25,491 nt of DNA from Cyanophora paradoxa CCMP329 (lineage: Eukaryota; Plantae; Glaucophyta). Shown piece by piece: positions 1 to 25,491 of the stretch. The notes beneath the pieces are model-generated. The model saw only the letters and a list, made by a program, of their open reading frames with translations, was not told where the DNA came from and searched no databases. The position numbers were made by a program, and so were the translations under genes. The DNA lies in assembly GCA_004431415.1 (NCBI GenBank), contig QPMI01000426.1, positions 1 to 25,491 of the forward strand, given 5' to 3'. Positions within the stretch are counted from its first letter, which is position 1; each line of letters opens with the position of its first letter.

Positions 1-1802
1 AACGAAATAGCATCTGGTAAATCAGACTTTGTAATATACAGCTCTTTAAGATCCTTTTTGAAAGGGGCGGTCAGATCTCCAATAGTAGCCGATGACCTGC
101 GACCACAATATTACAGGTGTTTGCATTCAAAGTATAAACTGTGTTCCACCTCAAAGAATTCGCCCCAAGATCGAAATTCTGTGAGAAGGGAACGATATTG
201 CTACCTTGTAAATCTCGGTAAACCTTCACTCTGGGTTTGCTATCGAATTCAGGGGTGATATAATTGATGTTAAGAGTGAAACTAATAGTAGCTTCGGAAC
301 TCAATGAGTTGTTTCGGATGATAAGTAAATTGTATGTCTCGTTAATGACAAACGAAACCTGAAACCCTGTGGAGGTGACATTTTGGATAAATGCTTTATT
401 AGATTCATTATTGTTATAGATAGGATTATAATAAGTAGTGTGATCCACCAATGAAACAGTGGGTATACGTCTCGAAACCTGTGACACCCAACTGATCCCA
501 AGTGAATGTATATGTAGGTTTGCCTACATAAGCGACATAGACCCCATTTGCGAGCTGCTGAGGGTATCCCTCGACAGTGTAGGTCTCAGTTCGCGAAACT
601 GAGCGGGAAAGGTTGCTATTAAGTCGTTGTAGCTGATCAGAGCTCTCTCATCAGTGGGTATTTGATTGGGTCGGAGTGAGTGATTTAATGGAAGGATTAA
701 ATTGGAGGCAAACATGGAAACTCCATGCATCTCTGACCATCTCAGATTCGACAAACCAACTCGGTATGTGTTATCAGTCGCGGGGTAAATGTTCCTTTTC
801 GATAGAATATGGGCTAAGGTAATTGCAAGCGCTCCATCTGCTGCAAACAGAGCATTAATTTCGGATTGCAAAGCGCGATTTCGGTTGTGTGGGTCGTGAG
901 GGTTCCATCCTGGCTGGAATCTTTGGTGTTCTTGCTCCTTTCAAACTCCAAAAACGCCTTTACAATGTCCTTGCCAAAAGATCGTTTATATTGTCTCTGG
1001 TAATGTGAACATGATCTGTTCTCAGTGCCTGTTTCTCTGTGGTAAATGCCGGAATTTCTCTGCAAATGATATAGTCGTTTTATCAAGTGCTAAGGATCTC
1101 ACATTCGGAGCATTGGCGCCAATTATATCCACAACGTTCCCATTTTCGACAATTTCTAAGGTCGGTTTCGCGGGTCTAATGTGAAAACGCCTCTGTGTTT
1201 CGGGAACCGAGTCGCTCTTCTGAATAATAAAGGATCGGTTTAGATTGCATGTGCGACATTAGTGGCGAAAAACGACTCGGAGTTAAGCGAGTTTACGTTT
1301 AGGGTATCCGTGATGTTACTTGCTGTAATATTGCTCGTCGTTAGATTACCTGCTGAGAGATCATGGACGACCTCTACCTTTGTTTTCGTGTGGATACTCC
1401 CGGCTATAAGCGTGCTATTATCCACGATTCTCATAGCTGCATTTTGGAAACCGCTCTCATCTTGAATGAAGAAGTTTAAGCGACCTCTATCGAAAGCTTT
1501 TGGGATGTTCCTACGATTATATCGCACCGTTTTCGGTAACTGACGAGTCGCCTGGATGCTGGCAACTCTGTTTCGCTCGTTATCATCAAGTAAAAAGTCG
1601 ATTCCAAGTTTATGATCCCCTTCTCGACGTTCATTAACTGCAAAGCTGCGGGTCTGCTCGGTGTTCCACTGACTGGATCTTCGCGGTCTGCATTGTAATT
1701 TATTCTGATAGACCACGAATTTCGGTGTTTACCTGGTCAGTGTCTCTATCTGCGTGTCGAATTAATTACTCGTGCATCGGGTCTCGGATTCAGGAACGAC
1801 AT
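1..1802 (-). CDS. Virion fibre/spike-like protein of element A (frameshifted, runs off left edge)
   Basis: ATG at 1802 (MSFLNP...) then ORF pieces 1240-1716, 524-871, 71-487. Two tail-fibre-type motifs (NIYPATDNTYRVGLSNLRW; NIVPFSQNFDLGANSLRW) and an H-lectin/gp53-like segment (IPTVSL...IQNVTSTGFQV). N-terminal block IPKAFDRGRLNFFIQDESGFQNAAMRI is homologous to element B IPSRFDSGRLIFNVQDEQGKQNTALRI. Joining of the pieces is inferred. Confidence 0.6.
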
Positions 1803-1845
1803 CCTCTTTATAAACAAGAAGATATATAAGAAGTATATTAAGATA

Positions 1846-3318
1846 ATGAAGACCGTTCTCGCTTTGAGTGGAGGGGGTCGCGCGGAATAATCGAGGCTGC
1901 TATACTGGCACAGATTGAAGCACAAACAGGTAAACGAATCCAACAGCTATTCGACTGCTTGCGGGAACATCCACAGGTGGATTAATCGCGCTCCTATTGA
2001 ATATCAAGGAACCGATGGCGCCCCTAAATATACTGCTACTGATATTCTGGCGCTCTACAAAGCGAAGCTACCGCTGATTTTCGCAAATCCACGAGTGCTT
2101 ACATCGATTGTACAGCGCCCAAGTACGAAGCAACTAACTTAGAAGCGGTGGCTCTCGAACTCTGCGGCTCAGCGACCATGGCGGATCTCTATAAACCCAC
2201 CATCGTGACTGCGTTCGACACGGTCTTAATGTCCCCCGTTTTTATTTCAAGCAACGATGAAGATATTAATGGGATGCTTGTGCGCGATGCTGCAAGGGCT
2301 ACCTCGGCTGCTCCGACCTATTTCGAGCCGAAACAAGTCACAGTCGCCGGAGAACATATTGTTTAATCGATGGTTGCATGAGCGGAATAATTCGCCCGGG
2401 ATCTGTGGCTACACGTTCGCCCGCACTTTATTCGGAAACTCATGCAGGAGGAGCTTATCGTGGTTTCGATTACGGCGGGTCACGTCAAGACTCTGATAAG
2501 GCGACAGCTGGATATTCGTACGACACTATGAAAATTGGGGGATCGTGCAATGGATGCTAAGCGCGACAGGATCGCCAATTCTCAGCATGTTCTTAGAGTC
2601 GAGCGATCTAACGCCCACGTAAAGCTGCTGGAACTTTTACCCAGAAACGATGATCAGAATTACGATCGCTACTATAAGCTGAGCGTTCCTTTACCGAAAG
2701 ATAAAATGACCCTCGATACTATCACAACGAGTCACCTGCAATATTTGGAAACGGAAGCGCTCGCCTTTGTTTCCGCACAGCAAACGTATTTTAATGCGAT
2801 GTATTCAGTGCTGACATGAATATCTCAGAGGCGTGTTCCATAATTAATCTGTCGGGTGCACAGATGTAAGCGCACCCCGGAGTCTAACTGGGTGCCGCTC
2901 GATAATAGCGCCTTTATTGCGGAATTCGGCACAGCCTCAATGCCCGCTGGTCGAATGCCACGGGTGGGTGGGATTTACAAACCCGCCGCAAGGTAGTAGG
3001 TCGGAGGCAATTATTTACGCATCGATTTCCCGCGTCTGTTTATGCTTTCCTCTATAAAAATGAAGCCGGCTGCGAATGGAAACTATATTAAAACGTTTGA
3101 GATCGATTAACAGCTTACTCCCGGAGTTTCTGCGCTTGTTACATACACAGAAGCCGCGCGACGAGAGTGTTTACCAATGCGAATCAAATAGCGGAAGTGC
3201 GGATCCCGACGAACATTTCTTAGCGAACCCGAGATCTGTGAGAACCCTCGTAATCTGGGTGCTCACGACGAATATTGCTTCGGCATGCCGAATAGATTTC
3301 GAGGGCTACTATGTGTGA
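1846..3318 (+). CDS. Patatin-like phospholipase with C-terminal F5/8 type C (discoidin)-like domain (multiply frameshifted)
   Basis: MKTVLALSGGG at 1846, GTSTGG nucleophile motif near 1965, AARATSAAPTYF, LIDG, YYKLSVPLP; downstream pieces SNWVPLDNSAF, NYLRIDF, YIKTFEI, CRIDFEG align with the discoidin domain of the element B orthologue. Confidence 0.85.
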
Positions 3319-23629: not shown

Positions 23630-24996
23630 ATGGATATCACTTCCACTCTTCAAAGACTTTCGCTGAAAGAAGCCCTAACAACCCCAGAGGAGGCGAAAGC
23701 CTTTTTCCTGGATAACTCCCTTATGCTTGGTCTCGAATCCAAGTCTAAGCCAGTTCTAGTTGTTGTGAATCCCAGCAATACTTTTGAGAATAATGTTGGA
23801 AATCGCATTTCCTTCAAGCTACCTCGCTACAATTTCTGTGGAAAACTCGAACTTGCTTTCGACCTTCCAGCCATCACTTTTGCTGGTGATACTGACCTAG
23901 TTCGCAATGGATACACTCGCCCAGTTGGTGCTTTAGTTCAGCGACTTGAAATTACCTATGGATCTTACACCTACCATATTCCATCTGATTTCCTTGCTCA
24001 TTTCCCCTGGTCTATTATTCGGAGGATCAACTAGCTAAAAAGAAGCGATCAATGGGCATGGTTCATGGCATTCCTGCTCATGGAACCAACCGCCTTGGTG
24101 GCTCATTTTTCGTTGAAATTCCTGTGCCTTGGCTAAATCACTACCTTCCCCTTGGTGCTTTATCTGGTGAAATGGTTGTTACTGTTTGGTTTAAGGATGC
24201 TGGAAAGGGTTATGTTGAAACTTCCTATGGTGGTCGTGGTCTTACTGTTGCAGCAGCTGATGTAGATTATTCAAAAGATGATGGTCTTGGAACTGCCCCT
24301 GCTGAAACTGTTCTGGCAAATGTTGGTCAAAACATCACAGACTTTACTCTTGGTGCAACAACCCCTGTCATTTCTATTACTTCTCCTCGCCTTTACATGC
24401 ATGCTATTAATGTTTCTGATGAGCTTTTCGCTACTGTAATTGAAAAAGTAAAGACTACTGGCATGGCTATTCCCTCCCTTGATATTGGATTTGTAGATGC
24501 TAGTGCTTTCCCTGCCAAGGGCAATGCCCAACCCAATCGAATTAACCTCTCTCAAATCTCAGGTCTTGTTTATGCTCTGCTTGTTTCAGTTCGTGATAAT
24601 GCAACTGTTGATAAATCCACTGGCTCCCACAGTGTTCTTAAGACCTATGCCAACTCCAAAGATATTACTTTCACTGTTGAAATTAATGGACAGCGACTTT
24701 ATGCCACTGAGCCAATTTCCCTACTCAAAGGTGCTGAGCTAATTGCTGATGCCTTCAAATGCTCTAACATGGATAAGGTTGCTGATCGCTATGTCCTTTC
24801 AGGTTTAAGTTTCTGCATTGATGGAGAGAAGGCAATTCGAAATATCGCCAGTGGATTTGTTGACCTGACAAATTCCTCATCTTCATTCCTCACCCTGTAC
24901 ATGCCTTCAGATAAGGTAATCGATGTTAATGTTCGCGCTCTCATGCATTCCTATATAATTTTGGACAAAGATGGGCTTCGTCGTATAAATCTTTGA
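23630..24996 (+). CDS. Major capsid protein (double jelly-roll) of element B (one frameshift near 24020-24050)
   Basis: ATG 23630; GNRISFKLPRYNFCGKLELAFDLPAI...LVQRLEI; YLPLGAL; VKTTGMAIP, RINLSQISG and DGLRRI are all matched in the element A MCP; ~455 codons. Confidence 0.8.
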
Positions 24997-25069
24997 TAAC
25001 CTTACGATAAACAGTAAGGCATTTAAAGAAAAAATGATTATTTATTTTTGAAAACATTTAAAAAGCAAA

Positions 25070-25491
25070 ATGCCCCTCACAATTAATGAGTTTGTAGATC
25101 GTGCAAATGCCAAGCATAATGGTAAATTCGATTATTCGAAGGTTCAATTTACAAAATGCAAGGATAAAGTTCTCATTTCTTGTCTGACTTGCAGTACAAT
25201 ATTTGAACAGCGTGTGGATCACCATCTAAGAGGGTCAAGCTGTAAAAAATGTAGTTTTCAGCGGTTGGGAAATGAACGCAGAAAAGAGCTGGAAACATTT
25301 ATAGAGCAATCAAGAAAAACACATGGAGACAAATATTGTTATAATAAAGTAGAATATGTGAAAGCTCACACACCAGTTTGTATAGATGCAACTCTTGTAA
25401 CAAAGAGTTCATGCAACCCCAATCATTCATATTCGAAATACTGGTTGCCCATTTTTGTAGATCTTCAAAAGTGAGGAAGAGGTGTGCAAAG
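25070..25491 (+). CDS. Zinc-ribbon-repeat endonuclease orthologue of element B (truncated by window edge)
   Basis: FVDRANAKHNGKFDYSKV...CLTC...HHLRGSSCKKC; HGDKYCY; same position after the MCP as in element A. The nuclease domain is not visible. Confidence 0.75.

What the first reader, a model, noticed from the sequence alone, without database searches (positions are those of the whole stretch)
1..25491. Two divergent members of one possibly undescribed small-DJR-virus lineage lying in tandem with an identical six-gene cassette
Seen: fibre(-), patatin-discoidin(+), penton(-), penton(+), MCP(+) and endonuclease(+) occur in the same order and orientation at 1-7561 and ~16776-25491. Protein motifs are matched, but DNA similarity is limited and composition differs, so this is not a recent duplication. 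Known: DJR-MCP + penton + A32 ATPase defines Polinton-like viruses, virophages and small Nucleocytoviricota. Inference: an NCLDV-style MCP N-terminus, two SRDR-type pentons and a patatin in a compact genome may mark a new group. Adjacency suggests an integration hotspot or a provirus array in a protist or giant-virus genome.
Basis: partly seen in the sequence, partly recalled or inferred. Interest (0 to 1): 0.85.

Follow-up and report, generated by a model that had tools for sequence, protein, structure and literature searches.

The report
Algal Polinton-like virus nested inside another
Two related small DNA viruses of a kind already catalogued in the genome of the glaucophyte alga Cyanophora meet here, one likely inserted into a gene of the other rather than lying beside it; they are ordinary endogenous Polinton-like viruses, although their capsid lineage has no name in the papers found.

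Summary
The shared gene order is real, but the interpretation needs three corrections.

(1) Not undescribed. The left capsid gene matches a Cyanophora paradoxa MCP in Bellas 2023 Table S2 at 155 of 156 residues (by eye), and the right one's best hit is a Cyanophora protein. That genome has 366 catalogued MCPs. Bulzu 2025 already reports their patatin-discoidin, PTR/H-lectin fibre and AdoMetDC genes. The lineage is catalogued but unnamed.

(2) Nested, not tandem. Short-read contigs place the B family's terminus at 10685 (±2), inside an A gene that other A copies continue differently.

(3) The cassette is not identical. The fibres share only about 60 residues, and the endonuclease appears optional in A.

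A relative's MCP folds as a double jelly-roll (VIA Z 24.6 to PBCV-1). The frameshifts look like long-read errors (14 frameshifts, 0 stops). The pentons were not proven.

Not found in print: A is CpG-rich (1.29) and B CpG-depleted (0.24) in a CpG-methylating host. B's end carries a 30-bp fold-back and an iteron array like those downstream of phage SF3 primase-helicases.

The parts
1..10684 (.). Element A (partial; runs off the left edge): CpG-rich Polinton-like virus, multi-copy family
   Evidence: MCP 155/156 identical by eye to a listed Cyanophora MCP
1..1790 (-). A fibre-like gene(s), frameshifted; only ~60 codons (about 1411-1600) clearly homologous to B's fibre region
1842..2819 (+). A patatin-like phospholipase, 6 frameshifts and no stop in 213 aligned codons
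   Evidence: Pfam PF01734 fragments below cut-off; 46% identical to B
3027..3318 (+). A discoidin-like segment (weak); fusion to patatin not shown
   Evidence: score 50 vs shuffles 31±3
3591..4191 (-). A minor-capsid (penton) candidate 1
   Evidence: 33% to B 21782-22537; fold not shown
4208..5120 (+). A minor-capsid (penton) candidate 2
   Evidence: DUF5901 E=0.0046, below cut-off; 25% to B over 122 codons; fold attempt failed
5176..6485 (+). A major capsid protein, three frame changes, no stops
   Evidence: 49-65% to P0003, 32-40% to P0001; near-identical Cyanophora MCPs with HHpred hits to iridovirus and NCLDV MCPs
6498..7584 (+). Likely optional zinc-finger/HNH-type homing endonuclease insert (ORF 6614-7561) between 24-bp direct repeats 6498-6521 and 7561-7584
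   Evidence: PHROG 559 E=1e-70; repeats 23/24; joint 6513 to 7576 in X6
7607..8473 (+). A32-type packaging ATPase
   Evidence: PF04665 E=1.6e-10; 67% to P0002
8476..10343 (+). Three A ORFs of no known family (frames 8464-9159, 9316-9807 and basic AT-hook-like 9930-10343)
10513..10684 (+). A ORF interrupted by element B; its stop (10690-10692) lies inside B's terminus
   Evidence: A-family contigs of X1 and X6 leave the window behind 10684 with one shared other continuation
10685..25491 (.). Element B (left terminus at 10685±2; runs off the right edge): CpG-depleted Polinton-like virus, multi-copy family
10683..10968 (.). Terminal fold-back of B: perfect 30-bp inverted repeat 10683-10712 / 10939-10968
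   Evidence: contig 10685-11160 in X16 links it to B's interior
11220..11494 (.). Two hairpin units with four TGTCAC-iteron arms; predicted replication origin
   Evidence: the same 20-mer lies just downstream of a VapE-like primase-helicase in 8 of 16 viral loci
11892..12299 (-). S-adenosylmethionine decarboxylase
   Evidence: PF02675 E=1.3e-11; in 66 of 156 glaucophyte elements
12209..12640 (-). Endonuclease remnant homologous to the A and B endonucleases
12612..16760 (-). Four paralogous fibre-like genes sharing an N-terminal domain; two end in C1q
   Evidence: (D1, D5, D7)
16776..20039 (-). B fibre region with acidic repeats, two PTR repeats and H-lectin tip (frameshifted upstream of 18140)
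   Evidence: same architecture reported from a Cyanophora PLV
20058..21617 (+). B patatin-discoidin, frameshifted
   Evidence: PF01734 and PF00754
21779..22537 (-). B minor-capsid candidate 1
22567..23576 (+). B minor-capsid candidate 2, one frame change
23630..24996 (+). B major capsid protein, one frame change
   Evidence: 56-65% to P0001 from Cyanophora paradoxa, whose model is a double jelly-roll
25070..25491 (+). B endonuclease (cut by the window edge)
   Evidence: PHROG 559/681; 37% to A's

Best explanation
The window holds parts of two multi-copy endogenous Polinton-like viruses of one capsid lineage already catalogued in Cyanophora, and the CpG-poor virus B has likely integrated into a gene of the CpG-rich virus A at position 10685.

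Shown: the shared gene order, the DJR fold of a close MCP relative, the A32 ATPase, B's terminus, and that other A copies continue differently past that point.

Inferred: B would integrate by an rve integrase (85 of 156 glaucophyte elements have one, none a tyrosine recombinase). It would replicate from the iteron origin near its left end with a primase-SF3 helicase encoded beyond the window. The rest of A would lie past B's far end. The particle is predicted to be a DJR capsid with two penton-like proteins, lectin-tipped fibres for attachment and a patatin lipase for membrane entry. Chance nesting suffices, given the high virus load of the genome. B's CpG loss at silent sites likely records long passage through the host's CpG-methylating nucleus, which A has escaped.
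For: Identity and host. All 24 listed runs carry one organism label, and 20 hold the stretch or part of it. Fold: Foldseek E 1e-16 to 1e-17 to SGIV and PBCV-1 MCPs; VIA Z 24.6, rmsd 3.7, 335 aligned.

Terminus: five different flanks before 10682-10685 and one before 10691; high-depth contigs start at 10685 in X6 and X10. A continuation: 2 contigs each in X1 and X6 leave behind 10684 with the same other sequence. Read by eye, it keeps A's frame open for 9 codons, where the window stops after 2. The dinucleotide change point is near 11071.

Errors rather than decay: 14 frame changes and 0 stops in aligned regions; contigs with 0 substitutions but 4-5 gaps. Origin. CpG at silent sites: C3pG1 1.11 against 0.23; NCG/NCN 93/338 against 16/553. 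Host methylation is CpG-only, 32%. Gene-content table.
Against: The A|B junction itself rests on the window alone. B's far end, any target-site duplication and the rest of A are outside the window. No integrase, polymerase or helicase was found among the 161 frames scanned with Pfam, so integration and replication mechanisms are inferred from family statistics and a motif. The penton identity is untested. The fold is of a relative (P0001), with mean pLDDT 60.7. Three of the 16 iteron-motif hits are merely collagen-coding, and five have no helicase identified. The host is inferred from protein identity and is not named by the run tool.
Confidence: 0.8

Rival explanations
1. The join is an artefact: a library or assembly chimera between an A copy and the free end of a B genome.
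For: The window is error-rich long-read sequence, and multi-copy EVEs are known to mis-assemble. Ligation to a free linear genome end would also break at the terminus.
Against: The break falls within 2 bp of the terminus defined by other insertions and exactly where other A copies diverge, which is what a true insertion gives. Virus-in-virus insertions are documented.
Confidence: 0.1
2. A was truncated at 10684 by deletion or recombination next to B, so the two lie end to end and the rest of A is gone (tandem in effect).
For: The far side cannot be seen in the window. A truncated B-end copy exists elsewhere (host-like flank behind 10782 in X1, X2, X10), so deletions do occur.
Against: B's terminus is complete, with its fold-back, and abuts A mid-gene with no host DNA between.
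Confidence: 0.07
3. The 286-bp fold-back at 10683-10968 is a separate MITE, and B's true end lies further right.
For: Perfect 30-bp terminal inverted repeats around an AT-rich interior.
Against: A diverged copy in X16 runs in one contig from 10685 to 11160 (17 other letters, 3 gaps). No duplication flanks the unit in the window.
Confidence: 0.03

Closest known systems
Cyanophora paradoxa endogenous viruses of Bellas et al. 2023 (PMC10120064; MCP clusters read as MMPC 21 and 29 by counting columns of Table S4) and Bulzu et al. 2025 (PMC12220804, 'Glaucocystophyceae', 156 elements)
   Same: Near-identical MCP-A and close MCP-B relatives are listed. A32 ATPase (139/156), lipase (89/156), AdoMetDC (66/156), patatin-discoidin fusion and a PTR-PTR-H-lectin fibre are reported.
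   Different: In the parts I read, those papers give no group name, tree position, termini, nesting or CpG contrast for them. Only 2 of 156 matched the MCP-POL profiles.
Nested PLVs and virophages of Halocafeteria seosinensis (bioRxiv 10.64898/2026.07.28.741278)
   Same: Virus inserted inside another endogenous virus (5 PLVs and 9 virophages there).
   Different: Different host and capsid lineages; here both partners are of one lineage.
NCLDV-related PLVs (Zoravirus VC102, VC134, VC218, Zephyrvirus) and Mriyaviruses (bioRxiv 10.64898/2026.06.19.733378)
   Same: Small genome with an NCLDV-like DJR MCP; rve is common in Zora and VC218; a lipase domain occurs in some Zephyr members.
   Different: No HUH, VLTF or Mriya48 gene was recognised in the window (partial elements; those profiles were not available). 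Cyanophora is not mentioned in that text (0 occurrences). Placement untested.
Polintoviricetes (Mavericks/Polintons) and Gosseviruses
   Same: DJR MCP, A32 ATPase, phospholipase, integration into a nuclear genome.
   Different: No cysteine protease in the window or in 156 glaucophyte elements; pPolB in only 49 of 156.
Virophages (Sputnik, mavirus)
   Same: Small DJR virus, endogenous multi-copy.
   Different: MCP model is much closer to PBCV-1 (Z 24.6) than to Sputnik (14.1) or mavirus (13.5); 0 of 156 match virophage MCP profiles.

Membership tests
Polinton-like viruses (broad sense, Bellas and Sommaruga 2026) | Double jelly-roll major capsid protein | tested here: met
   Model of P0001 (56-65% to MCP-B, 32-40% to MCP-A): VIA Z 24.6, rmsd 3.7, 335 aligned to PBCV-1; Foldseek E 3e-17. 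Tested on the relative, not on the broken window genes.
Polinton-like viruses (broad sense, Bellas and Sommaruga 2026) | A32-like packaging ATPase | tested here: met
   PF04665 E=1.6e-10 for element A; B's would lie beyond the window.
Polinton-like viruses (broad sense, Bellas and Sommaruga 2026) | Single jelly-roll minor capsid protein (penton) | tested here: inconclusive
   Two candidate pairs beside the MCP; DUF5901 below cut-off; single-sequence model pLDDT 38.5 with no Foldseek hit at E<=0.001.
Polinton-like viruses (broad sense, Bellas and Sommaruga 2026) | Integrated, multi-copy, with a defined terminus | tested here: met
   Many variant contigs (X1: 796/768/390 at 99+/95-99/90-95%) and several flanks at 10682-10685.
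Polinton-like viruses (broad sense, Bellas and Sommaruga 2026) | 15-40 kb genome with TIRs at both ends and a target-site duplication | not testable with these tools
   Both elements run off the window (A at least 10.7 kb, B at least 14.8 kb); no genome is held.
Polinton-like viruses (broad sense, Bellas and Sommaruga 2026) | Replication gene and integrase (rve or YR) | tested here: inconclusive
   None among 161 frames scanned, but the elements are partial; family table gives rve 85/156, pPolB 49, D5_N 40.
Polintoviricetes (Mavericks/Polintons, Gosseviruses) | Cysteine maturation protease with pPolB and rve | tested here: inconclusive
   No protease in the morphogenetic block of A; the published table gives 0 of 156, which argues against membership.
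Virophaviricetes (virophages) | Virophage-type MCP | tested here: not met
   Z 14.1 (Sputnik) and 13.5 (mavirus) against 24.6 (PBCV-1); MCP-VIR 0 of 156.
Mriyaviricetes / Yaravirus | HUH endonuclease, VLTF2/3, Mriya48, 35-45 kb, no integrase | tested here: inconclusive
   No such Pfam hit in the window; partial elements; integration at many sites and rve in 85 of 156 argue against.
NCLDV-related PLVs (Zora, Zephyr, VC134, VC218) | MCP profile cluster and ATPase tree position | not testable with these tools
   The preprint's HMM set and supplements are closed; my homologue sets were too small for a tree with references.

The most novel reading that the evidence does not exclude
These are the first anatomically described members of a separate, unnamed glaucophyte virus lineage. 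Its MCP escapes standard PLV profiles (2 of 156), has only four distant environmental relatives in 1.8 billion representatives, and may branch on the PLV-to-Nucleocytoviricota continuum. Its two sister families would have split lifestyles: B a long-term nuclear resident eroded by host CpG methylation, A a recent invader or one copied outside the nucleus in a giant-virus factory. That would predict an undiscovered giant virus of glaucophytes.
Probability: 0.3. Interest if true: 0.6.

Novelty: already known. Interest (0 to 1): 0.3.

Why it matters
As found, it is a modest addition. It gives a precise terminus, a likely origin and a nested junction for viruses that so far exist only as rows in supplementary tables, and it shows that their 'broken' genes are probably sequencing errors. 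The opposite CpG signature of two sister families in one cultivable, CpG-methylating alga makes a real question testable with existing methylome data: how long residence and host methylation shape endogenous DNA viruses. If the lineage proves to be a separate clade near the giant viruses, it would matter for virus taxonomy.

Tried and rejected
Junction support: no contig bridging A|B is listed in 4 of 4 DNA runs laid on 10590-10790 (32 of 338 pieces shown). A-side depth is flat in X1 and X6 and zero in X2 and X10. Contigs drop rare links between high-depth repeats, so this is no evidence either way.

Expression: no RNA holder listed. X16 is only guessed to be RNA and was used for termini alone.

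Contig depth over A's endonuclease is about tenfold lower than its neighbours in three runs. Depth cannot rank genes, so I count it only as a hint.

Penton fold: the single-sequence model failed; no match in PHROGs. MCP by sequence: no Pfam, PHROG or PDB match. ATPase against PDB: none.

Related loci: none in viral contigs or metagenome contigs. The profile search added nothing new. P0004 is a repeat-protein artefact and was dropped. ESM Atlas gave no answer. No tRNA or Rfam match. No earlier scan notes.

Rejected: recent duplication (no blastn match); decayed pseudogenes (0 stops); integration hotspot as a needed cause (about 7% virus load); NCLDV-like MCP as a mark of novelty.
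Full report
OBSERVATION. The window is densely coding but frameshifted. Translated comparison of its halves gives collinear, same-strand matches from 1243-7558 to 19629-25426, with no DNA-level match. Pfam names patatin in both, discoidin in B, an A32 ATPase in A, and PTR/H-lectin, C1q and AdoMetDC in B. PHROGs names the post-MCP genes as HNH/homing endonucleases. The cassette is conserved but not identical. 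The fibre regions share about 60 codons, and A's discoidin is weak and follows a stop. A's endonuclease sits between 24-bp direct repeats and is skipped by one contig of run X6.

WHAT THE CAPSID IS. The C-terminal frame of MCP-B found 1 protein among 4436 candidates, P0001 (56%), a Cyanophora paradoxa protein in EukProt. A full HMMER scan with it found 6 proteins at E<=0.001: itself, P0003, three more distant metagenomic proteins and one repeat artefact. P0003 is 49-65% identical to MCP-A. A model of P0001 (pLDDT 60.7) matches iridovirus and chlorovirus MCPs by Foldseek (E down to 3e-17; BFVD likewise). By VIA it matches PBCV-1 at Z 24.6, well above Sputnik 14.1 and mavirus 13.5. It is a double jelly-roll. 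The penton candidates are mutually homologous, but their fold could not be shown.

ALREADY CATALOGUED. For Bellas et al. 2023 (PMC10120064) I saw passages, main-text parts 2 and 3 of 7 and supplement rows. It counts 366 MCPs in C. paradoxa, 272 plus 94 in two clusters under 'iterative HMM searches'. By counting columns these are clusters 21 and 29, with no group name in the snippet seen. The estimate is 7.3% of the genome. Its Table S2 lists an MCP identical to MCP-A at 155 of 156 residues (compared by eye), a second matching A's C-terminal part, P0001 itself and a close relative of MCP-B. Their HHpred probabilities are 92-98.5% to iridovirus and other NCLDV capsids. The paper says most PLV and Polinton MCPs resemble NCLDV capsids. 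For Bulzu et al. 2025 (PMC12220804) I saw passages and Table S6. It reports a PTR-PTR-H-lectin fibre in a Cyanophora PLV and discoidin fused to patatin in rhizarian and glaucophyte PLVs. Among 156 glaucophyte elements it lists A32 139, lipase 89, rve 85, AdoMetDC 66, pPolB 49, D5_N 40, tyrosine recombinase 0, protease 0, and only 2 hits to its MCP-POL profiles. So the viruses and their signature genes are in print, unnamed and unplaced. Two 2026 frameworks do not mention Cyanophora: 10.64898/2026.06.19.733378 (parts 1-3 of 5 read; term count) and 10.64898/2026.10.13.758929 (passages). Their supplements are closed and may place these clusters. Searches for a description. I did not read the Cyanophora genome paper.

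NESTED, NOT TANDEM. CpG o/e is 1.29 over 1200-10680 and 0.24 over 11890-22500. Of 24 listed runs, 20 hold the stretch or part of it, all under one organism label. Laid contigs show both elements as families of variants. At the junction, high-depth contigs begin at 10685 in X6 and X10. Five different flanks, some very GC-rich, join the same sequence at 10682-10685 and a sixth at 10691. This is the B family's terminus, ambiguous by 2 bases. Contigs of the A family (2 each in X1 and X6) follow the window to 10684 and then continue with one other sequence. Read by eye, it keeps ORF 10513 open for 9 codons, whereas the window stops 2 codons into B's end. The simplest reading is that B integrated into an A gene, which also explains the absence of host DNA and of an A terminus. 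The junction itself is seen only in the window. With about 7% of the genome viral, some nested insertions are expected by chance. Nesting is documented in Halocafeteria (passages); in Cafeteria the passages show only retrotransposons in virophages.

B'S LEFT END. A perfect 30-bp inverted repeat (10683-10712/10939-10968) folds the first 286 bases back, and a diverged copy links it to the interior. Two hairpin units with four TGTCAC arms follow at 11220-11494. The same 20-mer occurs in 16 IMG/VR loci. In 8 it lies within about 340 bases downstream of a VapE-like helicase gene, 7 of these with 10-13 cores. Three are collagen-coding and five unassigned. I infer an iteron origin for a primase-SF3 helicase, a gene type present in about a quarter of the glaucophyte elements. 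That VapE-like proteins are SF3 helicases is recalled; one of the eight carries a Prim-Pol domain.

FRAMESHIFTS. Aligned homologous regions contain 14 frame changes and no stop. Short-read contigs differ from the window by gaps without substitutions (0 other letters with 4 gaps over 5117-5470; 0 with 5 over 5049-5464). Of the 12 indels shown, 11 are bases the window lacks; 86 more are not shown. These are most likely long-read errors, a problem Bellas et al. describe.

CpG CONTRAST. B's loss is at silent sites: C3pG1 o/e 0.23 against 1.11, and NCG among NCN codons 16/553 against 93/338 (9 B and 7 A stop-free frames). C. paradoxa methylates CpG only (32%), preferentially on repeats (PMC12344493, abstract and passages; PMC12695648 passages added nothing). 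The likely cause is long residence of the B lineage under host methylation while staying under selection, with A recent or replicated away from the methylase. I did not find this in print (searches above); it is an inference from one copy of each.

MECHANISM. Shown: gene order, DJR fold of a relative, ATPase, terminus, interrupted gene, multi-copy state. Inferred: rve integration, helicase origin, pentons, fibre and lipase roles in entry, and the rest of A beyond B. Whether either virus is autonomous or depends on a giant virus is unknown.

VERDICT. Known endogenous Polinton-like viruses of a glaucophyte, probably nested (0.8). The lineage is catalogued but unnamed. Interest 0.3. The bolder reading, a separate clade with two lifestyles, has probability about 0.3 and would deserve 0.6.

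Noticed in passing
window 1200-10680 vs 11890-22500: Opposite CpG signature of two sister virus families (o/e 1.29 vs 0.24), at silent codon positions, in a host that methylates CpG only.
   Followed up: partly
window 11220-11494; loci L002, L005, L007-L011, L014: TGTCAC iteron hairpins; the same 20-mer sits just downstream of VapE-like primase-helicase genes in 8 of 16 viral contigs, suggesting a widely shared origin motif.
   Followed up: partly
window 6498-7584 and 25070-25491; remnant at 12209-12640: Related homing-type endonucleases occupy the site right after the MCP in both families; in A the insert is bounded by 24-bp direct repeats and is absent from at least one copy.
   Followed up: partly
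window 12612-16760: Four tandem paralogous fibre-like genes share an N-terminal domain and swap C-terminal tips (two C1q, two unknown), like a receptor-binding repertoire.
   Followed up: partly
window 10683-10684: Most flanks at B's terminus share a C or TC just outside 10685, as does the inner arm of the fold-back: either a target preference or a terminus 1-2 bases longer.
   Followed up: no
window 10710-10782 (runs X1, X2, X10): One genomic copy holds only a short piece of B's end and then runs into GC-rich DNA: a truncated insertion.
   Followed up: no
P0005, P0006, P0007, P0010 (ENA contigs up to 11.9 kb); P0002, P0003 (Logan contigs): Distant (about 25%) and closer MCP or ATPase relatives exist outside this genome; their gene context could not be fetched.
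   Followed up: partly
window 9905-9930 and 10474-10499; 6567-6593 and 10413-10439: Short repeated motifs upstream of several A genes (D8, D15), possibly promoters.
   Followed up: no
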